Shown here: positions 158 through 55,043 of the stretch, in pieces | How positions within the stretch are numbered: the first letter of the stretch is position 1 | Layout of the letters: every line of letters begins with the position of its first letter | IMG/VR virus record: IMGVR_UViG_3300047292_000147 | Location: 6,378 to 70,377 of that record | Length of the DNA stretch: 64,000 bases | Reading direction: 5' to 3' (one strand) | Source of the DNA: a virus | Lineage: Duplodnaviria > Caudoviricetes | Position numbers and translations under genes: made by a program | Notes under the pieces: model-generated | Databases searched by the model: none | Told to the model about the DNA's origin: nothing | Seen by the model: the letters and a program-made list of their open reading frames with translations, nothing else

Positions 158-1413
158 TGGCCCAACCCATCACCTGGCAGAACATTACCGCTCCCAGCTT
201 CGGTGAAGCCAACCGCCTCATGGGCTTGGCTCAGCAGTCAATCCTTGGTGCCTTTGATGGTGCCAAGACTGCACTGGCTGACACCGACAAGTTCAACCAA
301 GAGCTCTGGAAGCGTCAGGACCAAGATGCTACTCAGGACGCCCTGGGCAAGGTCTACCAGGCTCAGACCGTAGATCAGATGAACGCATTGAACCAGTCAG
401 GAGTACTGGATCAAGCCACTGCTGCAAACGGTGCTCGAATTGATCGTGCTGCTGTCAACGCTTTGCGTGACGGCCGTGTCAATACGCTTCAGCAACGCGA
501 GCTTCAAGGCTTAAAGTTTGGTGAAGAAAAACTTGGCATCGAGCAAGCTGGTGCCACTGCCGAAGGTCTGGCATTGGCTCAGAAGCAAGATCCTGTTGCG
601 TTTAACGCTTGGCTTGCTGCCAATCCACAGAACCGCAAAATGGCTGAAGTGCTTGGCTTGAATCGTACTGTTCAGCAAAGCGTTGAAGACCAGACGTTCC
701 AGCGCAATACCGACACCCGTGCTGGCAATGCCGAAACACGCGCTGCTGAAACCCAGCCGCTTACTTTGGACAAACTGCGATCCGACCTCCTTACAGCAGA
801 AAGCCAAAGAAACGCTCAAGCAGCACAGGCTGCTCTTGCTACTGCTCAGGCCGAAAAAGTTCGTGCAGATGCAAAAGCTGCTGCAGCTGCAGGAACTCCA
901 GGCAGTCTGATTGACGCTCGCTACAAGGAGCTGGTTGCCAACGGTCCATGGGACAAAGGCACGCTTGATACTGCAGAAGGCAAGAACGCTTTTCTGGACG
1001 GGCTCAAAAAAATGGGCCTTCCTTCTGCTGCAGTTGATGACGTTGTTTCTCAGGTGTACAAGTACTACGGCAAAGGTGCTGTAGTTGGCTTTGATGAAAA
1101 AGGTCAGCCGATCCGTGCACCTCTGGGTGTATCGACTGCGTTGCAAGCAGTGGGCGAGGCTGGTAGCAACACGATGGTTGACAGTCTCTTTGGCTGGAGC
1201 CGTCGGGGCGATCAGACTGCCAATGCGTTGGACAGGATGTTTGGTACTTACTCGACTGGCGAGAAGAATCCTGCTTGGCAAGCCACCAAAGACAACGAGC
1301 TTATTCAAAAGATGCAAGCCACGCTGGCTTTGCGGAATCAGCGTGAACAGCTTCTGGCTACTCCTCCTGAGCAAGTCAACTACAACGGCAAGAACCCAAA
1401 AAAGCAGAAGTGA
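157..1413 (+). CDS. N4 gp51-position internal virion/ejection protein (418 aa; start reassigned to ATG 157)
   Basis: Ala/Gln-rich, Cys-free and helical; begins MAQPITWQN; syntenic with N4 gp51 just upstream of vRNAP; start coupled to the upstream stop. Confidence 0.7.
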   Translation: MAQPITWQNITAPSFGEANRLMGLAQQSILGAFDGAKTALADTDKFNQELWKRQDQDATQDALGKVYQAQTVDQMNALNQSGVLDQATAANGARIDRAAVNALRDGRVNTLQQRELQGLKFGEEKLGIEQAGATAEGLALAQKQDPVAFNAWLAANPQNRKMAEVLGLNRTVQQSVEDQTFQRNTDTRAGNAETRAAETQPLTLDKLRSDLLTAESQRNAQAAQAALATAQAEKVRADAKAAAAAGTPGSLIDARYKELVANGPWDKGTLDTAEGKNAFLDGLKKMGLPSAAVDDVVSQVYKYYGKGAVVGFDEKGQPIRAPLGVSTALQAVGEAGSNTMVDSLFGWSRRGDQTANALDRMFGTYSTGEKNPAWQATKDNELIQKMQATLALRNQREQLLATPPEQVNYNGKNPKKQK

Positions 1414-1463
1414 CGGCACAACCACCGGCCCCAGTTGAGTCTGGGGCGGTGCCGTCAACTCAG
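1398..1463 (+). other. Candidate -1 programmed ribosomal frameshift signal
   Basis: A_AAA_AAG at 1398-1404 is in the zero frame, followed by the spacer CAGAAG. TGACGGCAC (1411-1419) pairs with GTGCCGTCA (1449-1457), and GCCCCAG (1428-1434) pairs with CTGGGGC (1441-1447). The -1 frame is open into the 1410..2129 ORF. Confidence 0.75.
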
Positions 1464-2129
1464 GTGAACGGTGCTCCTGCGCCGATCAAGCCAATTGCGC
1501 AGACACCAGAAGGCACTTTTGTTACATCGAAGGGTGTTCTTGTCAAAGCCAATGCCACGTTGGCAATCGATGGTTCAAGCGGTGCTCCAGTCGGTGTGAC
1601 TCGGAATCTTCAAGTCCCGAAGGAACTGAGCAACAGCAAGCCAACCACTTTGGTTCAAGCCGATCCGAAGAACCTGAAGAGTGGTGATGCGTTCAAAGCC
1701 ACGATGACTTGGGTCAAAGACGGAGACACGTTGGATCTGTCAAATGGTGTGGTTTGCCGAGTCAATGGCATCGATGCTCCAGAGACAGCCAAGCCTAAAA
1801 AAGGTCAGCCTGCTCAGGCGTACTCCGCTGAAGCAACGAAAACACTTGAGCAGATGGTTCGGAACAAGGAACTGACCATTCGCATTGTTGAACCACCAAG
1901 TGGTAAGAACTACGATCGTGCCTCTTGCATCATTGAAGTCGAAGGCAAAGACGTTAACGTCGCCATGCTTCAACAGGGAGCTGCCTGGTTCTGGGGTTCG
2001 TTTGTCAAAGACTCGTTTCAGTACCAGAAAATGCAGGCTGCAGAATCGAAAGCGAAAAAGAACAAGGTTGGATTGTGGAAAGATCCAGATCCAGTCTTTC
2101 CAAACACTTACCAACGACAATACCGGTAA
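1410..2129 (+). CDS. Thermonuclease (SNase-like) domain preceded by a Pro/Ala-rich linker
   Basis: Staphylococcal nuclease motifs KDGDT, RVNGIDAPE, NYDR, DVNVAMLQQGAAW and AESKAKKNKVGLW. The GTG start has no strong Shine-Dalgarno. Confidence 0.85.
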   Translation: MTAQPPAPVESGAVPSTQVNGAPAPIKPIAQTPEGTFVTSKGVLVKANATLAIDGSSGAPVGVTRNLQVPKELSNSKPTTLVQADPKNLKSGDAFKATMTWVKDGDTLDLSNGVVCRVNGIDAPETAKPKKGQPAQAYSAEATKTLEQMVRNKELTIRIVEPPSGKNYDRASCIIEVEGKDVNVAMLQQGAAWFWGSFVKDSFQYQKMQAAESKAKKNKVGLWKDPDPVFPNTYQRQYR

Positions 2130-2207: not shown

Positions 2208-5200
2208 ATGGCTGAATTCGACCTCAATAGCTATTTCTCCAAGCGCCAACAACTGTTTGGGCAAGACAAGGTAGATGCTTTGCAGAAGGCTTCTGCAGAG
2301 AAAGTTCAAGCTCTCCAAGAAAGCCGAGCCCGAGATCAGGCTTACCTAAACAGCCCTCAAGCACAGATCGATCGAGCTGTTGCGGAAGGCCGTACCTGGG
2401 GCGAGTTTGGTCAAGACGTTGGTTTGTCTGCCATTCAAGGCGTTGATGCCTTGGCCAAGTTGCCGGCAATGGTTTACGACAAAGCCACGGAAGGAAACTT
2501 CTATGGCACGGAGACTCAGAGGATCAGTGCAATGTCCGATGAGCGTGAAAAGCTCAAGTCGGCATTTGCACAGGCCAACAACAAGCAGAAAGCCGATGCG
2601 GCCAAAGCTGCTGGTGAAGCGGCCAAAGAGTACTTTGGTGACGGTGCCCTTGGAACTGGTGCGCAGGTTGCTGCCGAGTTTGGTACTGCTTTCTGGGAAG
2701 CTGCCAAAGATCCAGGCAGCATTCCTGAGTTCTTGGCTCAACAAGCTGCTCAGCTGGGCGTCATGGGCAAGGTTGGCCGAGCATCGGAGCTCGCAGCTAA
2801 AGCTGCTGTCAAAGCAGCTCCAGTCCTTGCGGCTACCAAGGCTGGCCAGGCCGCAGTGAACCGTGTCGGTACGGCCGGTGCAGTAGGCACTGGTGCTGTG
2901 CTTCAGGGTACAGACGTTGGTTCGGACACCATGACTCGCCTTATGGAGCTTCCACAGGCAGTCTGGGATCAGAACCCTCAGTACAAAGTCCGAGCCGCTG
3001 AAATCGGTGCGGATGCTGCCAAGCAGGAGATTGCATCTCGTTTGGCTTCGGAAGCTACGGTGCAAGGTGCTGCAACTTCGTTGCTGTCCGCTGCCTTGCC
3101 TGGTGGTTCGTCTGTTGAGAAGGCCCTGGTCGGCAAGTCCCTGGGAGGCTTCAAAGCTGTTCCCAAAGCCTTTGTCGGAGAGTCGGGCCAGGAAGGTATC
3201 GAAGAGGGTACTGGCAAGTTCTTTGGCAATGCTGGGGTCAAGCAAATCGATCCAACCCAGTCACTGTCCGAGGATGTGGGTGCTGCAGCTGGCCAAGGCG
3301 CTTACATGGGTGGCTTGCTGGGTGCCGGCATCAGCGGTGTGCAGACTGCCGGAAACGCAGCTGCCATTGCTGCCGCTGAACGTGCGGCCAAGGTTCAGGA
3401 GGAAGTGGCCAAGAAGCAGGATCTGAGCGCTGCAATCGCCTCAGGTGATGTCTCGGCTTACCTGGATCCCAAGAGCCCTTCCTTTGCCCCCGAGAAGGCC
3501 GTGCAAGGACTGTTTGGCAACAGCCAAAAGGAAGACACCACACCGGAAGCCAAGCAGACCAACTTCGTCAAAGCCGAATCGATCGTTGCTGACCTCAAGA
3601 GCGAACGAGAGAAGCTTCAGCTTGAGCTTGATTGGACCAATCCAGACAAGCTTCAGGCGCGTCTTGATGCTGGCAGGGACGGCTTTAGTCCTGAGCTTAT
3701 TGCAGCGACAGAAGAAACCATTGCAACGCTTCGTACTACCCCTGCTGATCCGAATGAGATTGCAGCGCTTGAAGCCAAAGCAAAAAGCATGGATCGAAAG
3801 ATCCAGCTGTCCGAAACCATTCTCAAAGACTTCAACAGGGAAGGCCAAAACCAGCAAGTTGATGTTGAGGCTGAAGTAGCCAAGCTGAAGGACGCTGATC
3901 CTGTGGTGTCACAGGGTGCGGCCGACAACATCATCAACCTGTCCATGAAGTCTCCAGAGCTCGTGGATCGGAAGTTGGCTGCATCACTGGTCAACGACAC
4001 CACGAACAACCTGACGGACTCTCAGCGGGATTACCTGCGTGCGTTCTCCGAGGCTCGAGTTGCTGAAAACACCCTGAAGACCATGGGTGACGTTTCCAAA
4101 GAGATCTTCTTTGGATCGGCCAAAGACAAGCAGGGAATCAAGTACACCGGTCTGGCCGAGTACCGAGCCAATGTAGCTGTGACGCTGGCTGCTGGAAACC
4201 AGAAGTCTGCTGACCGTGAACTGGCTTTGCTGACCAATTTTGAAACCAGCCATCAAGCCAAAGCAAAAGCTGCTTCTGAGGCCTATGCCGCATTCCTGAA
4301 AGATGGAATCGAACGTCGTGTCGTCAGAAACAAAGACGGCAGTTGGAAAGTTGAACAGGGTTTGTTTGAAAGCCCTGCTGCTCGTGTTGAAAACGGTGGC
4401 TTGGATATTAAGGAGAATTCTCCAAAGATCGTCGCTGAAACCAAAACAGAAGCAGATGCAATTTCCAAGACTGCTGTCGAATTGAAGGCTGCTTATGCAG
4501 TAAAGTTTGGTTCAGGTAATACCGGTGGAGCCAGTAATGTCCAGAACGTACCGCAAGCACTCGAAGGAATTCAAAGCGCCGAAACGCAGCTTCGACCCGA
4601 AGCCTCGACGCAAGATGGAGCCGCTGAGGGAGTTGCGACTACCGGAGGAGGAGCCGCTGCCGACGTTCAGGCCGATGCAACAGCTGGAACTGATGCTGTA
4701 GCTCCTGCAAGCAAAAAAACAAACAGCCTTGAATTTGCTCGTTCTCTTGACAAGCAACTAAGTGACAGGCTTACACCAATTAGTCGCGCTCAGAAAGATG
4801 GAAAGATCTCACTGGAAGACGCTCGTGCACGTTTTCAAGAAGAAAAAACAAAGCTCATTGCTGAGAATGCTGAAGCTTTGGTGGCTGCTGCTTTTGAAGG
4901 GATCGCCCCTCGCACGTTGGCTGTTGCTAAGTCGTTTGCCAAAGATGGAAATGCTGCAATGGCTGCAGCACAAGCCCTTGGAGAGGTAGGAATCGCTTCT
5001 AGGCTGTACCCAGAAAACGATGCCTTGGTGCAACAGCTTGTGCTTGCTCGCTTGGCTCAGGAAACCCCGGCCGCTGCTCCAACAACTCAGGAGGCTCCGT
5101 CCTCTGCTGCGAGCACTGTAAAAGCTAAGACAGATCAAGCTCAACTGCAGTCTACTGAGCAGGCTACCACTTCGACTGAAGCGGTCGTTCCGGTTCCTGA

Positions 5201-8200
5201 AGCGGTCGCAGAAGCTGTGGAGTCTCAAGGGCTTACCGCACTCCAACAGAAGTCCCCGGAGGGGAAGTCCTACGTTGAACGTAACCTGCTGGCTGATCAC
5301 CTGAAGCAGACAGGCAAGCGTCCGTTGGTGATGGTCAAGAACTTTGTGACTGCTCTGAAGCAGCAGACTGCAAAGGTCATGGACTACCTGGATGTGAAGG
5401 AGCCTACGGACAAGCAGAAGGCTGCGGTGCAGCTGCTGGCTCGCAAGGTTGCAGAGTGGGGTCCGGTCATCAAGGGAAGCCTGGTAAAGGGCTACTGGAA
5501 CAACACCGAGAAGAAAGCCAAGGACGCCACCGAGTACCGCTACGCCGACCTGATGCAGTTCCTGATCGAAGGCACCAACAAGGATGGCCTGGATCTGGAA
5601 GAGAACATCAAGACGGCGATCGTCTACGCAGCCATGCGTGCGACGGTGGACGCTGCAGACAGCAACACGTTCAACTCGCCCGAAGACATCAACGCAATGT
5701 TCGGCCGATCGGATGAAGCCGAGGTCTCCGAGACCGAGCAGCGCATCCTGGCCAACGTCGGTGTGCGGGACAACAACTGGCGCAATCGTGCCGGTCAAGC
5801 CGCTGTTCAAGCCCTTGGTTTGAAGGCTGCTGACGAGAACACGCCGATTGATCTGCTGCCCCGACTGGAGAGCGCTTTTGGTGCGTACATCCAGAAGCTG
5901 CTGATGGACCGGGGCATCATGGTTCGGGAGACCCTGAGCCGCAAGGAGATGGAAGAGCTGTTCCCCGTTAATCCAGCTGATCCGAGCAGCAAGGTGCCGC
6001 CTTCATGGCAGTTTATGAAGCTGGCTCGAGATGCGGAAGGCAATCCCGTGCCTGCTGCTCAGCAGATCATCGAAGGACTCCAAGGCACAGGCAACGTGCT
6101 GGACAAGCTGTTTGATGTGGAGACCTTGGTTCGATTCCCGGTGCTGCAAGCGGCCGAGTTCAAGGACAAGAGCCAGAAGGGCGTCAACGAAGGCATCCCG
6201 GAGAACCTGCTTGAAGCAGTGAACCAGAAGCAGCAGGAAGCAGGCTACCTGCGTGAAGACTCTTGGGCTGTGCTCAGTGCATTGCCTGAGAAGGCCTTTC
6301 TGATGATGCACGGCTGGGTGGATCTGGAAAACACGACCGTCCACGCAATGGACATGCTGTCGGTGCAAGCCAAGAACGAAGGCATCGTGCGTGAGTACAA
6401 CCGCATCAAGCAATTCGTGTCCGAGGTGATTCAGCCGGCTGCAACTGAAGCCGACACTGAGTTGGGTGCTGTGCCGTTCTACGCTGAGATGTTCGTTGCC
6501 AAGCAGCAGCGTGTCTTCCAGAAGACCAATGGCTTCAATCAGCAGACCAGCAAGATGCACAGAAACGTGTATCGCAAGGGCTCATGGTCTCTGGACATCA
6601 AGCTCTCCGACGAAGCAGCCATGAACAACTTCAAGCTGCGTGTGCTCGAAGCCTTGGGAACCAAGACCGATGCACAGACCAACGACAGAACGCTGGACCA
6701 GTTCGATGCTGCCTTTGATCCCGAGATGCAATCGAGCACCAAGGGCAAAGAGAAAGCCGCTGCATTGCGCGATGCCGTGAAGACACTGCAGAAGATCATC
6801 TACGAAGGCACCACTTTGAGTGATGCCGAAGTTGATGCTTTGGTCAATGGTGTGGCCAAGGGTGGTGAAAAGGGTTTGACGCTGGCTGCACTTCAGGACA
6901 TGGCTCACTACATGCAAGCCATGGAGACTGGAACCGAGACATTCCCGGTGCAGTTCCAGGGTGAGATCGATGGCAAGACCAACGGCGTGATCATCAGCCA
7001 GTTGCTTTTCGGTGGTGCCGAGAGCCTGGAAGACATGCAGAACCGCATGCGTCGTGGTGGTCTGTTCTTTGAAGGCGATCAGGACAGCCAGTTCAACTCC
7101 TGGAAGCAAGAGGGCAACCTCGACCAGTACGAGTCCCTGGCCAAGCGACTGAATGAGATCGCTCAGCTGACTTTAGCCAGCGATCCTGAGGTGTATGCAG
7201 CCATCGAAGGCTTCACCAAGCCGCTGTCTACTGCTGATGGCCAGGTAGCCAAAGAAGGCCGGGACTTCACCAAGAATCCGCTGACCACTTTGATGTTTGG
7301 TTCCACGCTGTACTCGGCTGTGGACAAGATGGGTGACAAGCTAATTGCTCAGATCAGCAAGCGCATTGTTGATGTCGTGGACGGCAAGACACCTTCGACC
7401 ATGAAGGAAGTTCTGCAAGACCTGAACACGCTGATCACCCGAGGCGGTGGCAAGCCGATCAACGTCAACATGACAAACGCTCAGGCGATGAGTTCAGAGC
7501 TCAGCTCTGACCAGACTGCAGCCATCAAGCGGGCATTCCACAATTCGCTAGGCGATGCTGCAAAGCAAGCCTTTGAAGAAGAGTTCGGCACCTACCTGCA
7601 GCAGCGCAGCATTGCTGATGAAGCAGCCAACTTGACGTTTGCTCTGTCCAATGCCGTGATCTCCGGCATGCGTGTGGATTACGTCAGCAAGCTGATTGCT
7701 GATGAAGTCATGCCTGTCAACCCGACTACTGGCCAGCCACTGCGTGCACTGACCAAGCAAGAAGAGCGTGAGTTCCAAAAGCAAGTCAGCAAGCTGATTC
7801 CCCGTGTGCACACTGCTGGCTCGAAGAAAGACGGCAAGCAGTCGTCTGGCATTGGCTTGTTCAAGACCAAGCAGACGCTCAGCACCAACCCTGTCTACCA
7901 AGGCAAGGCCAGCTTCGGGACTCCGTTTGCAGACACCGTTGGCAAGACCGGCCGTCAAGGTCAGTCGATCGAGTCGTTCAGCGCAAAACTGAACAGCAAC
8001 GAGGTGGTTCAGGAAGAGCCAGGGATCAGCACTTCATCAAAGCAGGTGCACTCCTTCGACAGTACGGTTGCTCGTGGTGCTGAAACGCTGTTGGCTGCAC
8101 AGGGCATCGAGACTGATAACAACCACGATGCTTTGACTTCTGGTTTGAATGGCTTCAACAAAGTTGGTCAAGCACTGAACCAAAGCTTCTACAGTGAGCT

Positions 8201-11200
8201 GTCCCAGTACTCGCCTCTGGGTGAGTTGTCTGCGTCGCTCAATGGGATGGTTCAGGCCATCATCGGTTTTGCTGTCACTGGAGAAGGCAACAACCTGACC
8301 CCCACTGCACAGAAGAACCTTGCTGCAGTGCTCAACGAGCTGGTCAGCACCTATGGTTTGGATGCTGCTGCATCCCTGAATCTGGTGATCAGAAACACTG
8401 CTGATGCTGCCTACCGTGCAGACAAGATGAAGCTGGAGACGCTGGCCGGTGTCGTGTCTGTGGATCAGTACACCTTGGAAGGCGGCAACTACGAAGTCAC
8501 TCCAAAAGATCGTGACGCCATCACCGCTCAACTTGCTGCTCTGAGCCCAGAGGTCAAGTTGGGTGTATTCGAGGCTGTGGATTCGTTGGTGACGCTGATG
8601 GGTGACACGCTCACCGTGCCTCAGGCTCGCCAGACAAAGACCAAAGGTGCCACTGAGTTTGGCAACCTGGGTGCGTCTTCCGTCCGACACGATGCAGATC
8701 TGGTCAGCGTCTTCGAGAAGCGCGGTCAGTTGAATGCCAAACAGTTGGTTCAAGTGCTGCGCAAGAAGTTTGCCGAGAACACTGTCAACCGGGAGATCCT
8801 GGAGAAGCTGGTTCCTCTTCTGAACGCTGGTTTGGTGGTGAAGTACATCACCCCCGACTCCACTTCGGCCGATGTGCTGGAGAAAGCCAAAGAACCTTCC
8901 CGTGGTTGGTTCGTGTCCAAGGATGGCCAGCAGGAGATCTACGTTCTGGGTACCCAGTTCAAGGACTCTGGCCTGACTCCCGAGCTGCTGTTGCACGAAA
9001 CCTTGCACGCTGTGCTGGCGCAGGTGATCAACGGTCCGAAGAGTGCGGATGCTCAGGCTCTGGTGGCCGAGCTCGAGACGCTGCTTGCCGAGGCCAAGGC
9101 CATCGTGGCAAGCGACGCGTCGTTGTCTGCCTTTGCGCCGGCCGTCACCAATGTGGATGAACTGGTGTCTTGGGGCCTGACCAACAAGAACTTTCAGGTC
9201 AAGGTGCTAAGCAAGGTCCGGATGCAGTCCCAGACCACTCAGAACCGTTTGGTTTCGGGCATAAAGGCATTCGTGGATGCGGTGGCTTCGTTGCTCTTCC
9301 GCCGTCCTGACAAAAACCAGAACCACGGTGTGTTCGTCTTGATGTCGAACGTCTCCGGTCTGTTGACTGAAGCTGCCAATTCCAAACCCGGCGTGGATGT
9401 GAACCTGAGCATGGCCAGCCAGGTCGAGCGGATCAACAGCTTTACGACCCTGCAGATCCACGAGGCATTGGATACAGGGGCCGTAGACCCCGCTTTCCAG
9501 TCTCAGCTGGCCAATCTCCTCACCGGCATCGTTGACGCGCTCCACGGCCCGTTTGGTGCGTTTGCGCAGGCATTGCGGGGGACCGAAGCCAAGACGCCTA
9601 TGGATGCGTGGGCCAAGGCCAAGGAACTGGGTGTCGCCCCGTTCGGTTCCAGCGTGCTGGCCCGGATGGGTGCAAGCGAGCAGGAAGCCTTTGTGATCGA
9701 GCAGGTGGAAGCGACGGTCAAGGCCGCTTTGGAAGGCAACAACGCACAGGCCAAGATCGCCTACCGCGAGCTCTACAACCTGTACACGGAGATGTACAAC
9801 AAGTTCAACAAGGACGGTTCCGACTTCTTCAAGGGTGATTGGGCTTTGGCCACTCCTTCGGAGAAGGCTCATGCCAAGAGCCAGTACGACTTCGTGTTTG
9901 AGCTAAAAAGCGACAACGGGAACCGTTCCGATTATCTGGCTCGGTTTGCTGCATTGGGTCTGGCCCATCAGGGTTTCAACCAGATGCTGCAAGTGGCGAC
10001 CGAGAGTGATGTTGGAAAGCTTCGTGGGAAAGAATCCTTTGAGCAACGTCTGCGCCGTTGGTTCTCCAACGTGCTGGGTATGTTCCGTCAGCGTGTGACC
10101 AAGACTTACGCCGGTCAGCTTGCGGATGTGAAGCTGCAGACCTTGGTTGGCCAGCTGGTAGACATCGAGGCCAAGAAGCGTTCTTTGATCCAAGCCAAGA
10201 AAGGGCTGATCAACACCGCCATGGTGGAAGACGGTGCACGGGAAGTCACCGAAGGGCTTCGTAAGACGATTGCCAAAGTTGCTGATTCGGATTTCATGCG
10301 CAACCAGAAGAACACTGCAGTGCAGGTGGTTCGCAGTGCGGTCAGCACCATCACCAACGATCGCACCGAGAAGTACATCGAGGGCATGCAGAAGTTCGTC
10401 GAACGCAATATGCAGGCTCAAGGCAGCGTGCTTGTCAGCGTTCTGAAGGAATTGACTGGGCACAAAGAAAAGCTGCAAGCAGCGTTCCGTGTAGTGAAGA
10501 AGTTCGAAGGCGATCGTCAGGATCAGATTGCTGGCTGGGCCAAAGATGCTCGCAAGGCATTTGGCAAGAAGCTGTCGAGAGAGAGCAGCGCCAGCATCAC
10601 TTCAGTGATCATGCGTACTGGCTTGCACTATCTGAGTAACACGATGTCAATGGCCGAGTTGGAGCGCTTGGTCGACAACCCGGTTGCTCAGAACCTGGCC
10701 ATTGCTGAACTGGAAGCCAAGCTGGGCCACATGAAAGCCGAGTACGTTACTCAGATTAAAGGACTGGGCTACTACAAGGCAACAGAGGAGGTGAAGGTTG
10801 AAGTGCTGATGATGAACTCGCACTTGATCTCCAAGCTGGCTGATACGGTTTATGAGAAGCAGATCAGCGATGCACAAGCCAAAGCAGCAGAACCGATCAT
10901 CAAACAGCTGGTGTCGCTCTACGCACTGAAGTACACCTCACGAACCGAGCAGGCTTTGGCCAAGCAGGTGTTCCGTGATGAGAACGCTCGTGGCGAGTCT
11001 GTTGGCAACGGCATCGACTTCGTGATGAAGACACAGAAGGCTCTGGAAGCAGAAGCCTTCGAGCGTCAGTTCAAGAACAACTCTGCATTGATGGTGCATG
11101 GCTTTACGCCTGAGATCGTGAACCCACACACCGAGTTTGATGTGCTAGACGAAGTAACCGGCAAAGAGCTGGAAGACTATGGCTACAAGAAAGGCGCTTC

Positions 11201-12974
11201 TGTTACCAAAGACAGCGTGGACCCTGACAAGAGCCGCAAGCACATCTACGTGCTCAAAGGCGCTGGCTTGGCTCCTCATGTGTCCGGTGCACTGCAGTTC
11301 CAGACAGATGCTGCCAAGGGCACAAAGATCAACAGCGGGTACACCAACGTCAACACCCAGGAAGGTCTTGAGAACGCACAGGTTCAGGCAGAGTTCAATC
11401 AGAAGCTTGGCTCGAAGATCGAAACAGATCCCAACTGGGATCCTTCGATGGAAACCAACAACTACACAGCGCCGCTCTACAACGAGAACGGCAAGGTTGT
11501 GAACTGGCGTTACCTGATGAATAAGCAGACCAAGGATGAGCTGCTTGAGCGCAACAACAGCTTTGATCGTGTGCTAGGTGTTCTGGGCGGTACGGTGTTC
11601 AGCAAGCCAAAGATCAAAGAGCAGAACCGTGCGGTGCTTGAAGCACTGAGGGAGATCTACAAGGACGACTACGCACTGAACGCAGAATCGTATGTCGAGA
11701 TTGGTCCTAACAGCAGCGACCCAGAGCTTCGTAGCTTTTGGGATCGTTTGCCTGAGCAGACCAAACAAGACGTTCGTGATGTCTGGGGCAGAGACAACCT
11801 CAAGGTGACGGCCGACAGCCTGGATCTGGTGTTTGGTTACCGCAAGCGTTCACTGGCTGAACCTTTCCGCCAAAAGCAGAAAAACATAGCCAAGCTGGAA
11901 GCAGGTGGTGCATTGTCTGAGGCTGACAAGCAAGGGCTGATTGCTCAGAACTTTGTGGCATCGGTTGAGTGGGCTCTGACAACCTTTGCTCGAGTAAAGC
12001 TTGGCAAGCCACAAGACGAAGCAGAGCGCTACGCCAAACGAGCTGCGGCTTACATGACTCGCAGTGAGCGTGCATGGCAAGAAGTGGTGCGCGAGATCAA
12101 GACGATCTACGTCATCAAGAACGTCTCAACCATGGTAGGCAACAACCTCAGCAACATCTCTCAGCTCTTGGCTTCGGGTGTGTCTTTGAAGTCTATCCGT
12201 GAGCATCTGCCTGTGGCCATGAAAGGTGTTACGGCATACATGGCTGATACCGAAGAGCTGCGTGAATTAGAGAACCAGCTGGCGACGGGCTACACCCAAG
12301 GCAACGACGCAGAAATTGAACGCAAGATTGTTCGTCTGCGTGATGCCATCGCACGCAACCCTGCACGGGAGATGATCGAAGCTGGCTTGATGCCGTCTAT
12401 CGTGGAAGACATCGGGGAAGCGGATGATCCGTTCTCGTACAAGACGGAGCTGGCCAAGAAAACGGAGCGCTTCACCGACAAGCTGAACCCGAAGGTCAAG
12501 GAAGCGGCAAAGTTTGTGTACATGACCCGAGACGGCAAGCTGTACAAAGCATTGCACCAGGCCACACAGGTCAGTGACTTCGTGGCTCGATACGTCATGT
12601 ACCAACACCGCATCAGCCGAGAGCAGAACCCTCTGAGCAAAGCAGCTGCGATCCAGGAAGTGTCTGAAGCGTTCGTGAACTACGACATTGCGATGCACCG
12701 GAACATTCAGTTCATGGACGACATGGGCTTCTTCAACTTCACGAAGTATTTCCTGCGGATGCAGAAGGTGCTGTTGAAGATGGGTCGTGAGAATCCTGCA
12801 AGAGTGTTGGCTTTGGCAGCAGCAGATTCGTACCTGAACTTGGGATCCATCGTTCTGGATAGCTCAGCTTTGGCCAAGATAGGCAACAACCCATTTGGTA
12901 TTGGTGCTCTTGGCTTCCCAGGTGCACTGGATGACCTGGCTACGGTGAAGGCAGCAATGGCCTTGGTGAAGTAA
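2208..12974 (+). CDS. Virion-encapsidated RNA polymerase (N4 gp50-like, 3588 aa)
   Basis: Size; single-subunit RNAP motifs A (GEIDGKTNG), B (RDFTKNPLTTLMFGS) and C (NNHDAL); no Cys seen in the translation; N4 synteny. Confidence 0.95.
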   Translation: MAEFDLNSYFSKRQQLFGQDKVDALQKASAEKVQALQESRARDQAYLNSPQAQIDRAVAEGRTWGEFGQDVGLSAIQGVDALAKLPAMVYDKATEGNFYGTETQRISAMSDEREKLKSAFAQANNKQKADAAKAAGEAAKEYFGDGALGTGAQVAAEFGTAFWEAAKDPGSIPEFLAQQAAQLGVMGKVGRASELAAKAAVKAAPVLAATKAGQAAVNRVGTAGAVGTGAVLQGTDVGSDTMTRLMELPQAVWDQNPQYKVRAAEIGADAAKQEIASRLASEATVQGAATSLLSAALPGGSSVEKALVGKSLGGFKAVPKAFVGESGQEGIEEGTGKFFGNAGVKQIDPTQSLSEDVGAAAGQGAYMGGLLGAGISGVQTAGNAAAIAAAERAAKVQEEVAKKQDLSAAIASGDVSAYLDPKSPSFAPEKAVQGLFGNSQKEDTTPEAKQTNFVKAESIVADLKSEREKLQLELDWTNPDKLQARLDAGRDGFSPELIAATEETIATLRTTPADPNEIAALEAKAKSMDRKIQLSETILKDFNREGQNQQVDVEAEVAKLKDADPVVSQGAADNIINLSMKSPELVDRKLAASLVNDTTNNLTDSQRDYLRAFSEARVAENTLKTMGDVSKEIFFGSAKDKQGIKYTGLAEYRANVAVTLAAGNQKSADRELALLTNFETSHQAKAKAASEAYAAFLKDGIERRVVRNKDGSWKVEQGLFESPAARVENGGLDIKENSPKIVAETKTEADAISKTAVELKAAYAVKFGSGNTGGASNVQNVPQALEGIQSAETQLRPEASTQDGAAEGVATTGGGAAADVQADATAGTDAVAPASKKTNSLEFARSLDKQLSDRLTPISRAQKDGKISLEDARARFQEEKTKLIAENAEALVAAAFEGIAPRTLAVAKSFAKDGNAAMAAAQALGEVGIASRLYPENDALVQQLVLARLAQETPAAAPTTQEAPSSAASTVKAKTDQAQLQSTEQATTSTEAVVPVPEAVAEAVESQGLTALQQKSPEGKSYVERNLLADHLKQTGKRPLVMVKNFVTALKQQTAKVMDYLDVKEPTDKQKAAVQLLARKVAEWGPVIKGSLVKGYWNNTEKKAKDATEYRYADLMQFLIEGTNKDGLDLEENIKTAIVYAAMRATVDAADSNTFNSPEDINAMFGRSDEAEVSETEQRILANVGVRDNNWRNRAGQAAVQALGLKAADENTPIDLLPRLESAFGAYIQKLLMDRGIMVRETLSRKEMEELFPVNPADPSSKVPPSWQFMKLARDAEGNPVPAAQQIIEGLQGTGNVLDKLFDVETLVRFPVLQAAEFKDKSQKGVNEGIPENLLEAVNQKQQEAGYLREDSWAVLSALPEKAFLMMHGWVDLENTTVHAMDMLSVQAKNEGIVREYNRIKQFVSEVIQPAATEADTELGAVPFYAEMFVAKQQRVFQKTNGFNQQTSKMHRNVYRKGSWSLDIKLSDEAAMNNFKLRVLEALGTKTDAQTNDRTLDQFDAAFDPEMQSSTKGKEKAAALRDAVKTLQKIIYEGTTLSDAEVDALVNGVAKGGEKGLTLAALQDMAHYMQAMETGTETFPVQFQGEIDGKTNGVIISQLLFGGAESLEDMQNRMRRGGLFFEGDQDSQFNSWKQEGNLDQYESLAKRLNEIAQLTLASDPEVYAAIEGFTKPLSTADGQVAKEGRDFTKNPLTTLMFGSTLYSAVDKMGDKLIAQISKRIVDVVDGKTPSTMKEVLQDLNTLITRGGGKPINVNMTNAQAMSSELSSDQTAAIKRAFHNSLGDAAKQAFEEEFGTYLQQRSIADEAANLTFALSNAVISGMRVDYVSKLIADEVMPVNPTTGQPLRALTKQEEREFQKQVSKLIPRVHTAGSKKDGKQSSGIGLFKTKQTLSTNPVYQGKASFGTPFADTVGKTGRQGQSIESFSAKLNSNEVVQEEPGISTSSKQVHSFDSTVARGAETLLAAQGIETDNNHDALTSGLNGFNKVGQALNQSFYSELSQYSPLGELSASLNGMVQAIIGFAVTGEGNNLTPTAQKNLAAVLNELVSTYGLDAAASLNLVIRNTADAAYRADKMKLETLAGVVSVDQYTLEGGNYEVTPKDRDAITAQLAALSPEVKLGVFEAVDSLVTLMGDTLTVPQARQTKTKGATEFGNLGASSVRHDADLVSVFEKRGQLNAKQLVQVLRKKFAENTVNREILEKLVPLLNAGLVVKYITPDSTSADVLEKAKEPSRGWFVSKDGQQEIYVLGTQFKDSGLTPELLLHETLHAVLAQVINGPKSADAQALVAELETLLAEAKAIVASDASLSAFAPAVTNVDELVSWGLTNKNFQVKVLSKVRMQSQTTQNRLVSGIKAFVDAVASLLFRRPDKNQNHGVFVLMSNVSGLLTEAANSKPGVDVNLSMASQVERINSFTTLQIHEALDTGAVDPAFQSQLANLLTGIVDALHGPFGAFAQALRGTEAKTPMDAWAKAKELGVAPFGSSVLARMGASEQEAFVIEQVEATVKAALEGNNAQAKIAYRELYNLYTEMYNKFNKDGSDFFKGDWALATPSEKAHAKSQYDFVFELKSDNGNRSDYLARFAALGLAHQGFNQMLQVATESDVGKLRGKESFEQRLRRWFSNVLGMFRQRVTKTYAGQLADVKLQTLVGQLVDIEAKKRSLIQAKKGLINTAMVEDGAREVTEGLRKTIAKVADSDFMRNQKNTAVQVVRSAVSTITNDRTEKYIEGMQKFVERNMQAQGSVLVSVLKELTGHKEKLQAAFRVVKKFEGDRQDQIAGWAKDARKAFGKKLSRESSASITSVIMRTGLHYLSNTMSMAELERLVDNPVAQNLAIAELEAKLGHMKAEYVTQIKGLGYYKATEEVKVEVLMMNSHLISKLADTVYEKQISDAQAKAAEPIIKQLVSLYALKYTSRTEQALAKQVFRDENARGESVGNGIDFVMKTQKALEAEAFERQFKNNSALMVHGFTPEIVNPHTEFDVLDEVTGKELEDYGYKKGASVTKDSVDPDKSRKHIYVLKGAGLAPHVSGALQFQTDAAKGTKINSGYTNVNTQEGLENAQVQAEFNQKLGSKIETDPNWDPSMETNNYTAPLYNENGKVVNWRYLMNKQTKDELLERNNSFDRVLGVLGGTVFSKPKIKEQNRAVLEALREIYKDDYALNAESYVEIGPNSSDPELRSFWDRLPEQTKQDVRDVWGRDNLKVTADSLDLVFGYRKRSLAEPFRQKQKNIAKLEAGGALSEADKQGLIAQNFVASVEWALTTFARVKLGKPQDEAERYAKRAAAYMTRSERAWQEVVREIKTIYVIKNVSTMVGNNLSNISQLLASGVSLKSIREHLPVAMKGVTAYMADTEELRELENQLATGYTQGNDAEIERKIVRLRDAIARNPAREMIEAGLMPSIVEDIGEADDPFSYKTELAKKTERFTDKLNPKVKEAAKFVYMTRDGKLYKALHQATQVSDFVARYVMYQHRISREQNPLSKAAAIQEVSEAFVNYDIAMHRNIQFMDDMGFFNFTKYFLRMQKVLLKMGRENPARVLALAAADSYLNLGSIVLDSSALAKIGNNPFGIGALGFPGALDDLATVKAAMALVK

Positions 12975-13081: not shown

Positions 13082-13387
13082 TTACTTGATGAGGATTTCC
13101 TCAAGCTTTCCACCCTTCGCCAGGTGTGCTTCAACCCATTTGGGTTTACGTCCTCGACCGGACCAGAAGTTGGTGCCGGATTGATACTTCATAGCCACCT
13201 TTGCTCGACCAGTAGCAGTGATCTTGACTGGCTCACCGAAGTTCAAGTCTCTTACACGGATGCCGTAGAACTTGATCTTTTCGTTGATGTCCTCGATCGC
13301 AGCAGATCTTTCTTTTGAAAGAAGAGCGTCTCTTTCTTTCTGGAGGGTTTCGATCTGTTTTTGCAGATCATCGAGCTTGTTGGCCAT
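13082..13387 (-). CDS. hns: H-NS family nucleoid-associated protein (101 aa, BpH3/Bv3F type)
   Basis: N-terminal coiled coil (LDDLQKQIETLQKERDALL) and C-terminal KYQ..TNFWSGRGRKPKW signature; AGGA Shine-Dalgarno before the ATG at 13387. Confidence 0.9.
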   Translation of the reverse strand: MANKLDDLQKQIETLQKERDALLSKERSAAIEDINEKIKFYGIRVRDLNFGEPVKITATGRAKVAMKYQSGTNFWSGRGRKPKWVEAHLAKGGKLEEILIK

Positions 13388-39864: not shown

Positions 39865-40128
39865 ATAGTACAAAGCTGGTTCGATAGTACAAAGCAAAGA
39901 AAAAGGGCCTGAGTCGTTAGACCCAAGCCCTTGAATTTACTACCTTTTTTGGCGCGCCCGGCAGGATTCGAACCCACGACCCCTTGGTTCGTAGCCAGCT
40001 GGTCCCGGAGCCAGATTCATCCAAGAAATCAAGACCTTGGGTTGGCCAAGCTGTACTACCCAAGGGACTTAGGCTTAGGAGGTAAGTCATTGATTTTTTG
40101 GAAGGTCTCTTCTGGCGATAGTACAAGC
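39865..40128. mobile_element. attP site (core, arm-type repeats, IHF sites)
   Basis: Core 39950-39997 is the 3' 48 nt of a tRNA-Arg(ACG) on the minus strand (TGGCTACGAACC...GGTTCGAATCC...CGCCA) with no 5' half. TAGTACA repeats flank it, and WATCAANNNNTTR matches at 40027-40039 (+) and 40083-40095 (-). Confidence 0.85.
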
Positions 40129-40132
40129 CAAG

Positions 40133-40375
40133 CTACCTTCGGGCGATCCAGCCGACAGGCTCTTCCTCACCCGTCTGCAGCTTCTTGAACTCAGCATCAG
40201 CCAAGGCACGATCCTGGAAGCAGAAGCGTTTGCCCCAGCCGTACAGGTTCAGGTCCATGTAGATGGCCTTGGTGAAAAGCAAGTTGCCTATGCCAACCAG
40301 GGTGCCGTCATCCAGTGCACGGACATCCAGGTAGTCACCCAGAGCCTTGATCTCTTCGAGCAGCTTGTCAGTCAC
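40133..40375 (-). CDS. Small conserved phage protein
   Basis: ATG start, operon-coupled downstream of the integrase. Confidence 0.55.
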   Translation of the reverse strand: MTDKLLEEIKALGDYLDVRALDDGTLVGIGNLLFTKAIYMDLNLYGWGKRFCFQDRALADAEFKKLQTGEEEPVGWIARR

Positions 40376-40515
40376 CGCATGGCCCTCAGCTTAAGCATGT
40401 AGCCCTCAGTGTAGACCTTGGCCCAGTCTTCCAGCTTGTTGAAAGCCAGAGCCAAGGGAAGGTACTGCATCAGCTCTTTGAGATTGGCATCAACTCTTTG
40501 GACTTGTTGGTTCAT
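40372..40515 (-). CDS. 47-aa hypothetical protein (MNQQVQRVDANLKELMQYLP...)
   Basis: Read manually; GGAG Shine-Dalgarno; stop overlaps the next start. Confidence 0.45.
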   Translation of the reverse strand: MNQQVQRVDANLKELMQYLPLALAFNKLEDWAKVYTEGYMLKLRAMR

Positions 40516-40516
40516 G

Positions 40517-40843
40517 TCAGTCTCCTTTGGCTTTGTATTCTTTGATGAGTCGATTCATCCACTTGAGTCGGTGTTTTTGCACACGCTCTGTTGTTAGTTC
40601 TGTTCCGGGTATGCCGGCTCCATATTGAAGCCAAACATTCAAGTTGTTCCAAGGAAACAATCGAGCCTCAATGACATCACGGCATCTTTGGTGCATGTTC
40701 AGAACATATTGTTTTTGTTGATTTTTTGCTGCATACAGAATGGCATAGCAGATGTACTCGGACTTATCACAGTCAAGTTCATAATCGTCTTTGCCATCCC
40801 ATAGGTATTTTTTGCCTTTGGCAATCAGTTCTGATGTTTTCAC
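40517..40843 (-). CDS. Hypothetical protein
   Basis: AGGA Shine-Dalgarno; follows the integrase. Confidence 0.55.
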   Translation of the reverse strand: MKTSELIAKGKKYLWDGKDDYELDCDKSEYICYAILYAAKNQQKQYVLNMHQRCRDVIEARLFPWNNLNVWLQYGAGIPGTELTTERVQKHRLKWMNRLIKEYKAKGD

Positions 40844-40849
40844 ATGTTC

Positions 40850-41938: not shown

Positions 41939-42159
41939 TACATTGCTTCCCAGTTAGGTTCAGCGTGTTTGGTTTGCTTCTTGGTTTCAGTGGAGCCATC
42001 AAACACCTTGGTGATGTGAGCACGCAGTATTGCGACGCTTCCATCTGGCCGTACACGGTGTTCGATGCCCATGGCTTTCAAGACCCTGACCTGTGCAGTG
42101 CGTACCTTGCGTTGGGTCAGAGCTTGGATTTCTTCAAAACTCAGAAAGGTGTCAGTCAC
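41938..42159 (-). CDS. xis: Excisionase-like winged HTH (DUF4224 type)
   Basis: FLSFEEIQALT.RK...QVRVLKAMGI.HRVRPDGSV pattern; TAATG-coupled to int. Confidence 0.75.
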   Translation of the reverse strand: MTDTFLSFEEIQALTQRKVRTAQVRVLKAMGIEHRVRPDGSVAILRAHITKVFDGSTETKKQTKHAEPNWEAM

Positions 42160-52349: not shown

Positions 52350-53594
52350 TCAGCAGAGTCCGTATGCAGACTCCCTGATCTTGTCACCCAGGGTCTGGGA
52401 CAACTTCGGGAACATCCCTGGCTTGCCATGGAGTTGGCTCAAGATGTCGTCCAGAAGGTAGCTATCAGCCAGGTCAGCCAGGATCTCCTTGTACTGATAC
52501 CGAACCCAATTGATGTTGTTGGGGTGTGCTTTGAACTCGTCATGGATGGTGACGATCTCAAAGGGTTGGTACTGGAGCATGCCGTTGATGATCTTGGCCA
52601 AGTGCTCGAGGTGCTCTTGGCTCAGCTTCTGCAGGTTCTCTGGGGTCAGATGAGGCATGATCACGACATCCGGGACAGTACTTCTCTCGTACTGCTGGAC
52701 GTAGTAGCCGGCCTTGCCATAGGGCATAGAGACTTCTCTCTTGGCTCCCATGATGCGTTCCAGCATCTCGATCTCAATCCATGCTGCTGCTTGTTCTGCG
52801 ATCTCCCGATCGTAGTTGCAGCGACGGTGCATGCTCCTCAGCACGTAAGCATCGACACTGTGAGTGACGTTGGCTGCATTGCTGAGCCCTGACTTCGAGC
52901 CCTGGTTCTCGTAGAACTCGTAGCTGAAGGTGGCATGGTTTAGCTCATCGACCTCGATGCGTGCCTCGACCTTCTTCATGACCTTTATGCGAGCATCGAA
53001 GCCGTCAGGCATCACCCAGGCATGCTGCAAGGCATAGGGTTGCCAGCTGGCCAACAAGTCTTGCAGCAGCTCCCATGCACCTGGTGCGATGATTTGAGCA
53101 GCCTCGTAGAACGCAGCCAGCTCAGGAGTCTCGTCACCGAAGAGGTTCTTTGGCTCGGCCTTGGAACCGTAGAAACTGGTCATCAGGGCTTGCTTGGCAT
53201 CCTTGCGGTCTACGACCAGGTTGCCACCCAAGATGCCGTTCATCACCTCTGTGCAGGTGGTATAGGCATCGGCTCGAACATTGGGGTCAACCAAGCCTGT
53301 AGCCGTGGCACCAGCTTCGCAGCCAGTCAGGACAGACATCATCTGAATGCCTGAGCAGGTGCCATCCACACCAACCAGATGGCCAGTAGGAATGCCTTGC
53401 TGTGCTTTGCGGATGGCTTGAACAGCCTTGATGTACAGAGGCTTGGTTTCTGCCAGTGAAGCAAGGTGCTCCAGATCAAGCATGTGACAGTCGGTCCAGT
53501 GAATACGTTCTTCGAACGTCACCTTGTCCATACCGTACTGGGTAGCAGCATCAATGAGAAGCCACTGATACCCGGTGTAATGATTCATTGCCAT
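52350..53594 (-). CDS. N4 RNA polymerase II subunit 2 (gp16-like)
   Basis: WLLIDAATQYGMDK, VGVDGTCSGIQ, RKDAKQALMTSFYGS, IHDEF. Confidence 0.9.
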   Translation of the reverse strand: MAMNHYTGYQWLLIDAATQYGMDKVTFEERIHWTDCHMLDLEHLASLAETKPLYIKAVQAIRKAQQGIPTGHLVGVDGTCSGIQMMSVLTGCEAGATATGLVDPNVRADAYTTCTEVMNGILGGNLVVDRKDAKQALMTSFYGSKAEPKNLFGDETPELAAFYEAAQIIAPGAWELLQDLLASWQPYALQHAWVMPDGFDARIKVMKKVEARIEVDELNHATFSYEFYENQGSKSGLSNAANVTHSVDAYVLRSMHRRCNYDREIAEQAAAWIEIEMLERIMGAKREVSMPYGKAGYYVQQYERSTVPDVVIMPHLTPENLQKLSQEHLEHLAKIINGMLQYQPFEIVTIHDEFKAHPNNINWVRYQYKEILADLADSYLLDDILSQLHGKPGMFPKLSQTLGDKIRESAYGLC

Positions 53595-53613
53595 TTGTGG
53601 CTCCTTTGATTGG

Positions 53614-53841
53614 TTAGGTTAGAAGAAGGGCAAGAGCACGAAGCTCTTTGGGAACGTCGTCAACAATCACCGGAGTGAGATCATTGCAACGCCACCAAGT
53701 TTTCGTCATAAAAGGGCTGTAGATGTACGCACCGTCGTAGATCTCTTGCCCAAACTGGGCTTTGATGTCCTTCGATGTCAAATTTCGGCCGTTAAGTGAG
53801 GCCACCAACTGGGTGCCATAGAACAGGTGAACGATGCTCAT
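53614..53841 (-). CDS. Small hypothetical protein
   Basis: Ends VPKELRALALLLT; overlap-coupled. Confidence 0.55.
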   Translation of the reverse strand: MSIVHLFYGTQLVASLNGRNLTSKDIKAQFGQEIYDGAYIYSPFMTKTWWRCNDLTPVIVDDVPKELRALALLLT

Positions 53842-54955: not shown

Positions 54956-54987
54956 TGGTTTCTCCATGTCCTGGCAACAGCGCCAGC

Positions 54988-55002
54988 CCATGGCCGGAGG
55001 CC
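54988..55002 (-). promoter_or_regulatory. Candidate vRNAP hairpin promoter upstream of RNAP1
   Basis: Template (+) strand CCAT-GGCC-GGA-GGCC. Confidence 0.6.
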
Positions 55003-55043
55003 GAGACCTGAGGGATGACTGTCTTTGCTGCGGTCTACGTGTG

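What the first reader, a model, noticed from the sequence alone, without database searches (positions are those of the whole stretch)
7260..7301. Natural Tyr-to-Phe substitution at the rNTP/dNTP gate of the virion RNA polymerase
Seen: motif B reads R1685-D-F-T-K1689-NPLTTLM-F1697-GS (TTT at 7296-7298), so Phe sits at K+8. The phage's own RNAP2 keeps Tyr there (RKDAKQALMTSFYGS). Established: this position is Y639 in T7 RNAP (Y678 in N4 mini-vRNAP numbering, from memory), and Y639F relaxes discrimination against 2'-deoxy and 2'-modified NTPs. Inference: the enzyme may incorporate dNTPs, for example making DNA or chimeric primers at hairpin sites, or may use a different sugar-selection residue. 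This could be of biotechnological interest.
Basis: partly seen in the sequence, partly recalled or inferred. Interest (0 to 1): 0.7.

Follow-up and report, generated by a model that had tools for sequence, protein, structure and literature searches.

The report
Phe in vRNAP motif B: lineage-typical
The phenylalanine at the sugar-sensing position of this phage's giant virion RNA polymerase is real, but it is the usual residue in this branch of N4-like phages and was noted in 2010; it almost always comes with a conserved histidine that may take over part of the sugar check.

Summary
Observation confirmed. TTT at 7296-7298 encodes F1697 in motif B (RDFTKNPLTTLMFGS, 7260-7304) of a 3588-aa Schitoviridae virion RNA polymerase (2208-12974, +). 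It aligns with N4 mini-vRNAP Y678 and T7 Y639.

Phe sits there in 150 of 172 sampled homologs, including all ten relatives at 83-91% identity, so it is not a sequencing error. It is also present in cultured Pseudomonas phages (DEV, PJNP053, phCDa). Ceyssens et al. 2010 already reported a 'Y678F substitution' in LUZ7, LIT1 and PEV2. On trees, one large, mostly Phe clade holds the window, and Phe/Tyr has switched at least 13 times.

New here: the residue matching T7 H784, which a review says hydrogen-bonds the ribose 2'-OH, is His in 151 of 153 Phe-type enzymes (window H1948, 8049-8051). It is His in only 11 of 29 Tyr-type enzymes; N4 has Ile. His losses cluster on Tyr lineages (P about 1e-3).

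Most likely this is an ordinary early-gene RNA polymerase, in which His may keep part of the ribose contact (inferred). Its sugar selectivity may be lower than N4's. Nothing supports DNA or primer synthesis. Low interest as posed; the Phe/His coupling is a modest, testable lead.

The parts
2208..12974 (+). Virion RNA polymerase gene (3588 aa, no cysteine)
   Evidence: ORF list; phrog_2206, E = 0; a 30-row profile hits N4 vRNAP structures at E = 1e-157 (full length) and 4e-44 (mini-vRNAP); 0 Cys
5208..8807 (+). Central T7-like polymerase module (residues 1001-2200), the modelled region
   Evidence: AlphaFold2 model: pLDDT 88.6, pTM 0.85. Foldseek top hits are N4 mini-vRNAP 3c3l/3c2p/2po4 (E about 1e-33, TM 0.68-0.75), then T7 and mitochondrial RNAPs (about 1e-13)
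6510..6512 (+). R1435, equivalent of T7 R425 and N4 R424 (T/DxxGR motif)
   Evidence: hhalign; column conserved in 99% of Phe-type and 21/21 Tyr-type rows of the large clade and invariant in the 30-row alignment; coordinates
6963..6986 (+). Motif A, EIDGKTNG: catalytic D1588 (T7 D537, N4 D559) and G1593 (T7 G542)
   Evidence: BLASTP to N4; hhalign to T7; both columns invariant
7260..7304 (+). Motif B, RDFTKNPLTTLMFGS: R1685, K1689, F1697
   Evidence: In the model the helix spans 682-696 and F697 sits at its C-terminal end
7296..7298 (+). TTT codon for F1697, homolog of T7 Y639 and N4 Y678
   Evidence: Phe in 150/172 homologs
8046..8060 (+). VHSFD motif holding H1948 (CAC, 8049-8051), proposed equivalent of T7 H784 (VHSQD); N4 has Ile925 here
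   Evidence: T7 sequence; hhalign; 25 residues upstream of motif C, against 27 in T7 and 25 in N4; the same THSxD motif is in the window's RNAP2 and in N4 gp16; coupling with Phe
8124..8129 (+). Motif C, H1973-D1974 (T7 H811-D812; N4 F950-D951)
52350..53594 (-). RNAP2 large subunit. It keeps Tyr in motif B (53207-53163) and also has His in THSVD and H-D in motif C
   Evidence: phrog_2051, E = 1.3e-144; motifs

Best explanation
F1697 is the lineage-typical residue at the C-terminal end of the O-helix (motif B) of the T7-like polymerase module of a Schitoviridae virion RNA polymerase. It is homologous to T7 Y639 and N4 Y678. It is not a private mutation. The window's enzyme lies inside a large vRNAP clade that also holds the Pseudomonas Litunavirus, Luzseptimavirus and Shizishanvirus phages. 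In that clade Phe is the predominant and probably ancestral state, and Tyr has reappeared many times. In Phe-type enzymes a second ribose-contact residue, the equivalent of T7 H784 (window H1948, in VHSFD 25 residues before motif C H1973-D1974), is almost invariant. In Tyr-type enzymes it is often Gln, Met, Leu or Ile (N4: Ile925). The most likely working model has three parts. (1) The enzyme is an ordinary, injected, DNA-dependent RNA polymerase for early genes. (2) The ribose 2'-OH is sensed by either of two hydrogen-bond donors, the Tyr hydroxyl or the His imidazole, and at least one is needed; here His does it alone, with G1593 (T7 G542) leaving room for the 2'-OH. (3) Its intrinsic rNTP/dNTP selectivity may still be lower than N4's, which would be tolerated because cellular rNTP pools far exceed dNTP pools. 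Shown: the homology of the residues, the distribution of Phe, and the Phe/His association. Inferred: that His compensates, and the actual selectivity.
For: Position and homology: (five motifs collinear with T7). Phe is common: 150 Phe against 22 Tyr among 172 homologs (31, 150 representatives at 50% identity; tally). Cultured DEV, PJNP053 and phCDa have Phe; N4, Gamaleyavirus, Zuri, Erwinia, Rhizobium/Agrobacterium, roseophage, Vibrio and Klebsiella phages have Tyr. In the tree a node of 174 rows with support 99 is almost all Phe and holds the window; there are at least 13 Phe/Tyr changes on both FastTree and IQ-TREE trees. Not an error: ten relatives at 83-91% identity all have Phe. Prior report: PMC3715699, legend of Fig. 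[quoted passage not shown] Coupling: (Phe,His) 151, (Phe,non-His) 2, (Tyr,His) 11, (Tyr,non-His) 18. Of 52 columns at least 93% conserved in Phe-type enzymes, only H1948 is widely lost in Tyr-type ones (kept in 8/21). Parsimony places 5 of 7 His losses on Tyr-background branches, which are 14.9% of branch length (P = 1.2e-3). On a second tree it is 7 of 9 on 24.8% (P = 1.3e-3). All 120 close N4 relatives are (Tyr,Ile), and five more basal cultured genera are (Tyr,Ile). Role of T7 H784 and G542: the review PMC11617373 states that H784 hydrogen-bonds the 2'-OH and G542 avoids a clash.
Against: T7 Y639F still has H784 yet uses dNTPs nearly as well as rNTPs (PMC6535458). So His alone may not restore discrimination, and the constraint on His may concern catalysis or initiation instead. 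The profile-profile alignment to T7 has low overall probability (10.9%); the H1948 = H784 equivalence rests on collinear motifs, local similarity and spacing. The phylogenetically independent sign test is weak (about 4 of 9 pairs change together, none the opposite way; median p = 0.125). The sample is biased towards the query's relatives: only the best 150 of 594 representatives were seen. No biochemistry exists for any Phe-type vRNAP that I could find.
Confidence: 0.8

Rival explanations
1. Phe makes this vRNAP a relaxed-specificity polymerase that incorporates dNTPs in vivo, for example making DNA or chimeric primers at hairpin sites.
For: T7 Y639F uses dNTPs about as efficiently as rNTPs (PMC6535458). 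N4 Y678F was reported to do the same (Kazmierczak 2002; from my memory and as cited; the paper could not be read). F1697 is the homologous residue.
Against: Phe is the normal state of a large clade of phages that grow lytically, such as DEV and the Luzseptimavirus and Litunavirus phages. It therefore marks no special function of this phage. The His that a review says contacts the 2'-OH in T7 is kept under strong constraint precisely in Phe-type enzymes. The phage has its own family-A DNA polymerase. A primase was not looked for in the window; N4 has one. Nothing in the sequence points to a priming role.
Confidence: 0.1
2. Phe and Tyr are functionally interchangeable here (near-neutral toggling by a single TTY/TAY change), and the association with His is an artefact of phylogeny, sampling or alignment.
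For: At least 13 switches on the trees. Eight Tyr-type members of the large clade keep His. The independent-pairs sign test is not significant.
Against: H1948 is the single clear outlier among 52 conserved columns. His losses are enriched about four- to five-fold on Tyr lineages on two trees (P about 1e-3). (Phe,non-His) occurs in only 2 of 153. One regain of Phe coincides with a regain of His (P0068).
Confidence: 0.2
3. Sequencing or assembly error: the true codon is TAT.
For: A single A-to-T change would do it. Reads could not be inspected.
Against: Ten independently assembled relatives at 83-91% identity, and 150 of 172 homologs, have Phe at the same position.
Confidence: 0.01

Closest known systems
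vRNAPs of Pseudomonas N4-like phages LUZ7, LIT1 and PEV2 (Ceyssens et al. 2010, Virology 405:26; PMC3715699)
   Same: Natural Phe at the N4 Y678 position of motif B, noted in that paper's Fig. S2 legend. Current Litunavirus and Luzseptimavirus representatives (DEV, PJNP053) read ...MMFGS and carry His at the H784-equivalent. They are in the same large clade as the window.
   Different: Only about 30% identity to the window's polymerase domain, so this is a different, uncultured lineage. The 2010 note did not mention the His and gave no biochemistry.
N4 mini-vRNAP (gp50 residues 998-2103; PDB 2po4, 3c2p, 3q0a) and its Y678F mutant
   Same: Same fold (Foldseek E about 1e-33, TM about 0.7). Same family (profile E = 4e-44). 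Same motifs T/DxxGR, A, B and C.
   Different: N4 has Tyr678, Ile925 at the H784-equivalent and F-D in motif C. The window has Phe, His and H-D. The engineered N4 Y678F is therefore (Phe,Ile), a combination not seen in the 153 natural Phe-type sequences sampled; the two exceptions have Gln.
T7 RNA polymerase Y639F and Y639F/H784A
   Same: Homologous residues: Y639 = F1697, H784 = H1948, G542 = G1593, D537 and D812 = D1588 and D1974. The window's enzyme has the T7 Y639F configuration (Phe plus His).
   Different: In T7 the change is engineered, and Tyr was described as highly conserved in phage-like RNAPs (PMC11617373). In vRNAPs Phe is a natural, widespread state. Overall sequence similarity to T7 is marginal (hhalign probability 10.9%).
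N4-type RNAPII (gp15/gp16 heterodimer), present in the same phage
   Same: T7-like motifs B and C and the THSxD His.
   Different: It keeps Tyr together with His. It is a two-subunit middle-gene enzyme and is not packaged.

Membership tests
Schitoviridae virion RNA polymerase (N4 gp50-like) | Giant single polypeptide of about 3500 aa matching the family profile over its whole length | tested here: met
   3588 aa. phrog_2206, E = 0, covering residues 28-3584. A 30-row profile hits full-length N4 vRNAP cryo-EM chains at E = 1e-157.
Schitoviridae virion RNA polymerase (N4 gp50-like) | Central polymerase domain with the mini-vRNAP fold | tested here: met
   AF2 model with pLDDT 88.6. Foldseek top ten hits are all N4 vRNAP entries: mini-vRNAP crystals and gp50 cryo-EM models (E = 1e-33 to 1e-29; TM by query 0.67-0.69).
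Schitoviridae virion RNA polymerase (N4 gp50-like) | No cysteine residues (noted for N4, roseophage and DEV vRNAPs) | tested here: met
   0 Cys in 3588 aa; 159 of 171 homologs also have none. Literature.
Schitoviridae virion RNA polymerase (N4 gp50-like) | Genome context of an N4-like phage (RNAPII subunits, family-A DNA polymerase) | tested here: met
   phrog_2051 and phrog_2166 (RNAPII large and small subunits) and phrog_17 (DNA polymerase) are in the window.
Schitoviridae virion RNA polymerase (N4 gp50-like) | Packaged in the virion and injected; transcribes early genes from hairpin promoters | not testable with these tools
   Needs virion proteomics and transcription assays.
T7-like single-subunit RNA polymerase catalytic core | Motif A and motif C catalytic aspartates | tested here: met
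   D1588 and D1974 are invariant and align to N4 D559/D951 and T7 D537/D812.
T7-like single-subunit RNA polymerase catalytic core | Motif B Rx3Kx7YG with Tyr as the ribose discriminator | tested here: not met
   R1685 and K1689 are present, but the Tyr position is Phe. This holds for 150 of 172 sampled vRNAP homologs, so Tyr is not a defining feature within vRNAPs.
T7-like single-subunit RNA polymerase catalytic core | His equivalent to T7 H784 and small residue equivalent to G542 near the ribose 2'-OH | tested here: met
   H1948 in VHSFD and G1593. The equivalence is by profile alignment, local motif and spacing, not by a residue-level structural superposition.
Relaxed sugar-selectivity polymerase (behaves like T7 Y639F or N4 Y678F) | Measured loss of rNTP/dNTP discrimination | not testable with these tools
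   Needs an enzyme assay. No published assay of a natural Phe-type vRNAP was found.

The most novel reading that the evidence does not exclude
vRNAPs sense the ribose 2'-OH through an either/or pair of hydrogen-bond donors: the motif-B Tyr and the T7-H784-equivalent His. Phe-type enzymes such as this one rely on His alone. As natural 'Y639F-like' polymerases they would then have measurably relaxed sugar selectivity. That would make them ready-made enzymes for 2'-modified RNA synthesis on single-stranded hairpin templates. It would also predict that adding I925H to N4 Y678F restores discrimination.
Probability: 0.3. Interest if true: 0.5.

Novelty: new member of a known kind. Interest (0 to 1): 0.3.

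Why it matters
As posed, it matters little. A natural Tyr-to-Phe change at this position is widespread in one large branch of N4-like phages and has been in the literature since 2010, so this phage is not special. The survey has two uses. First, it corrects the assumption, taken from N4 and T7, that Tyr is the rule in virion RNA polymerases: among this phage's relatives Phe is the rule. Second, it shows that Phe is tied to a conserved His at the T7 H784-equivalent position. That gives a concrete two-residue hypothesis for how single-subunit RNA polymerases check the sugar, testable with a handful of point mutants. If Phe-type enzymes do have relaxed selectivity, many natural variants are already available for making 2'-modified RNA.

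Tried and rejected
1. A single-sequence phmmer search of the 1201-aa polymerase region against PDB sequences found nothing. A 30-row profile later found N4 vRNAP, so the blank was a sensitivity limit.
2. Megablast against cultured phages gave no match. The phage has no close cultured relative; the best tblastn identity is about 30%.
3. Pfam gave only sub-threshold hits to the N4 vRNAP domain families.
5. Kazmierczak et al. 2002 is not held in the library. What I say about N4 Y678F rests on memory and on how Ceyssens 2010 cites it.
6. Searching with N4 gp50 to widen the Tyr-type sample returned only close N4 relatives, all (Tyr,Ile). That adds little diversity.
7. Global hhalign against T7 failed; only the local mode gave the collinear alignment.
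8. Columns 1777 (Phe/Tyr) and 1800 (Arg) also differ between Phe- and Tyr-type enzymes. The differences trace to few lineages, so I set them aside as phylogenetic.
9. Recent N4 and DEV structure papers were searched for any comment on this residue; none was found.
10. Residue-level distances in the model could not be obtained, because the tool returns no coordinates.

Full report
**The observation**

The window has a 3588-codon ORF at 2208..12974 on the + strand. Its translation reads RDFTKNPLTTLMFGS at residues 1685-1699, encoded by 7260-7304. TTT at 7296-7298 encodes F1697. The protein is a Schitoviridae virion RNA polymerase:
- phrog_2206, E = 0, matched over residues 28-3584.
- A 30-sequence profile hits full-length N4 vRNAP cryo-EM chains at E = 1e-157 and the mini-vRNAP crystal chains (2po4, 3c2p, 3q0a) at 4e-44.
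- An AlphaFold2 model of residues 1001-2200 (pLDDT 88.6, pTM 0.85) has N4 mini-vRNAP as its best structural matches (E about 1e-33, TM 0.68-0.75). T7 and mitochondrial RNA polymerases follow at about 1e-13.
- It has no cysteine, like N4 gp50 and 159 of 171 homologs.

**Is F1697 really the Y639/Y678 position?**

Yes. N4 gp50 from the public record reads RGIAKNPLTITIYGS at R1663/K1667/Y1675. In mini-vRNAP numbering this is R666/K670/Y678. BLASTP of the window's domain against N4 mini-vRNAP (E = 2e-12) aligns motif A (EIDG against EADG, D559) and motif B column for column.

A local profile-profile alignment to a T7-family profile has low overall probability (10.9%; E = 0.0028 for the single comparison). 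It nonetheless lines up five motifs in order:

| Window | T7 |
|---|---|
| R1435 | R425 |
| D1588 | D537 |
| G1593 | G542 |
| R1685 / K1689 / F1697 | R627 / K631 / Y639 |
| H1948 | H784 |
| H1973-D1974 | H811-D812 |

In the model F1697 sits at the C-terminal end of a helix spanning model residues 682-696, as expected for the O-helix. ORF 52350..53594 (minus strand; phrog_2051, E = 1e-144) reads RKDAKQALMTSFYGS.

**Is Phe unusual?**

No. I collected 31 homologs from the 90%-identity collection and the best 150 of 594 representatives at 50% identity. I then read the aligned residue in each. The tally is 150 Phe and 22 Tyr. The ten closest relatives, at 83-91% identity and from separate assemblies, all read ...MFGS, so a base-call error is excluded even though reads could not be checked.

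Among cultured phages:
- Phe: Litunavirus DEV, Luzseptimavirus PJNP053 and Shizishanvirus phCDa.
- Tyr: N4, Gamaleyavirus, Zurivirus, Erwinia, Rhizobium/Agrobacterium, roseophage, Vibrio/Pseudoalteromonas, Klebsiella and Salmonella phages.

A tree of 193 polymerase segments puts the Tyr-type cultured groups at the base. A node of 174 rows with support 99 is almost all Phe and holds the window. Within it, the window lies in an all-Phe group of 15 whose sister, P0016, is Tyr. The fewest Phe/Tyr changes is 13 on this tree and 13 on an IQ-TREE tree of a thinned set.

The literature already has this. One caveat: my sample is the part of the family nearest the query, so 87% Phe is not a family-wide frequency.

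**What else goes with Phe?**

I scanned the alignment for columns that behave differently in Phe-type and Tyr-type enzymes, and one stood out. Window H1948 (VHSFD, 8046-8060) is His in 151 of 153 Phe-type sequences. Among 29 Tyr-type sequences it is His in 11, Gln in 14, Met in 2, Leu in 1 and Ile in 1.

Within the large clade, 52 columns are at least 93% conserved in Phe-type enzymes. Apart from position 1697 itself, H1948 is the clear outlier, kept in only 8 of 21 Tyr-type members. Nearly all the others are kept in 80-100%.

This position is not motif C. N4 D951 lies 25 residues further on (KIFD951G), and the window's motif C is NNH1973-D1974-A. The stretch instead matches T7 VH784SQDGSH, which lies 27 residues before H811-D812, and hhalign pairs H1948 with H784. 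The same THSxD motif is present in the window's RNAP2 and in N4 gp16.

N4 has Ile925 at this site, as do all 120 of its close relatives. So do Zuri, OLIVR3, RHph_X2_28B, Fifi450 and Ruegeria phage V13; KpCHEMY26 has Gln. Those N4-type enzymes also read F-D rather than H-D in motif C.

**Is the coupling more than shared ancestry?**

Parsimony on the FastTree tree gives seven losses of His inside the large clade. Five fall on Tyr-background branches, which make up 14.9% of the branch length (binomial P = 1.2e-3). On the IQ-TREE tree it is seven of nine on 24.8% of the length (P = 1.3e-3). One regain of Phe (P0068) coincides with a regain of His.

The stricter independent-pairs sign test lacks power. 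Of nine well-supported pairs, about four change together and none goes the other way (median p = 0.125). I regard the association as probable but not proven.

**Mechanism**

A review of phage RNA polymerases states that in T7 Y639 discriminates ribose from deoxyribose. [quoted passage not shown] The pattern seen here is (Tyr, anything), (Phe, His), and almost never (Phe, non-His). This is what one expects if at least one of the two hydrogen-bond donors must be present.

My best reading is that this vRNAP is an ordinary early-gene RNA polymerase. In it H1948, with G1593, keeps contact with the 2'-OH in the absence of the Tyr hydroxyl.

This step is inferred, and there is a real objection. T7 Y639F retains H784 and yet takes dNTPs about as well as rNTPs (PMC6535458). 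Phe-type vRNAPs may therefore discriminate less well than N4, and the constraint on His may serve catalysis or initiation rather than selectivity. High rNTP:dNTP ratios in cells (general knowledge) would make a lower selectivity tolerable.

Nothing supports DNA or chimeric-primer synthesis. The trait is shared by many lytic phages, and the phage has its own family-A DNA polymerase.

**Comparison with what is known, and novelty**

The enzyme is a member of the N4 gp50-like vRNAP family, and every feature I could test is met. Its active-site configuration is that of T7 Y639F (Phe plus His). The engineered N4 Y678F is (Phe, Ile), a combination absent from the natural Phe-type sequences sampled.

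The natural Phe has been known since 2010 for Pseudomonas N4-like phages, so this is a new member of a known kind. I found no paper that links vRNAPs to H784 or that assays a Phe-type vRNAP. The Phe/His coupling may therefore be a new, modest observation.

**Verdict**

Interest is low as posed (0.3). The coupling gives a cheap, decisive mutant experiment.

Noticed in passing
window 8124-8129 (H1973-D1974); N4 L001 gp50 F950-D951 (mini-vRNAP numbering): Motif C reads H-D in the Phe clade (98.6% of Phe-type rows and 21/21 Tyr-type rows of that clade), as in T7 H811-D812. N4-type Tyr enzymes read F-D (N4, Zuri, OLIVR3, RHph_X2_28B, Fifi450, V13, KpCHEMY26). At two active-site positions the window's clade is more T7-like than N4 is.
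   Followed up: partly
P0058 and P0134 (homologs): These are the only two Phe-type vRNAPs without His at the H784-equivalent; both have Gln (IQSTES, TQASDS). They are natural tests of whether (Phe, non-His) enzymes work. P0058 is an 1131-aa fragment.
   Followed up: no
L020 (PQ898399.1, Enterobacter phage SonariX, 235599-246470): A 248.7-kb record labelled 'partial genome' carries a full-length N4-type vRNAP homolog (Tyr, Gln type) that groups with Klebsiella phage HS106. Either a jumbo phage has an N4-type vRNAP, or the assembly is chimeric.
   Followed up: no
window 2208-12974: The 3588-aa vRNAP has no cysteine at all, like N4 gp50 and 159 of 171 homologs. One homolog has 11.
   Followed up: partly
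window 52350-55093 (minus strand): The RNAPII large (52350-53594) and small (54050-55093) subunit genes are separated by a 111-aa ORF (53614-53949) with no PHROG match. In N4, gp15 and gp16 are adjacent.
   Followed up: no
window residue F1777 (about nt 7536-7538) and R1800: Two further columns conserved in Phe-type enzymes differ in some Tyr-type ones (F1777 to Tyr in 9/21; R1800 to Thr/Lys/Ser in 8/21). The changes trace to few lineages and look phylogenetic.
   Followed up: partly
window 1393-2129, 13082-13387 and 39865-42159: Other first-stage notes on this window propose a -1 frameshift upstream of the vRNAP gene, a virion nuclease, a phage H-NS, and an integrase with attP (a temperate N4-like phage). 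None bears on this finding, and none was checked here.
   Followed up: no
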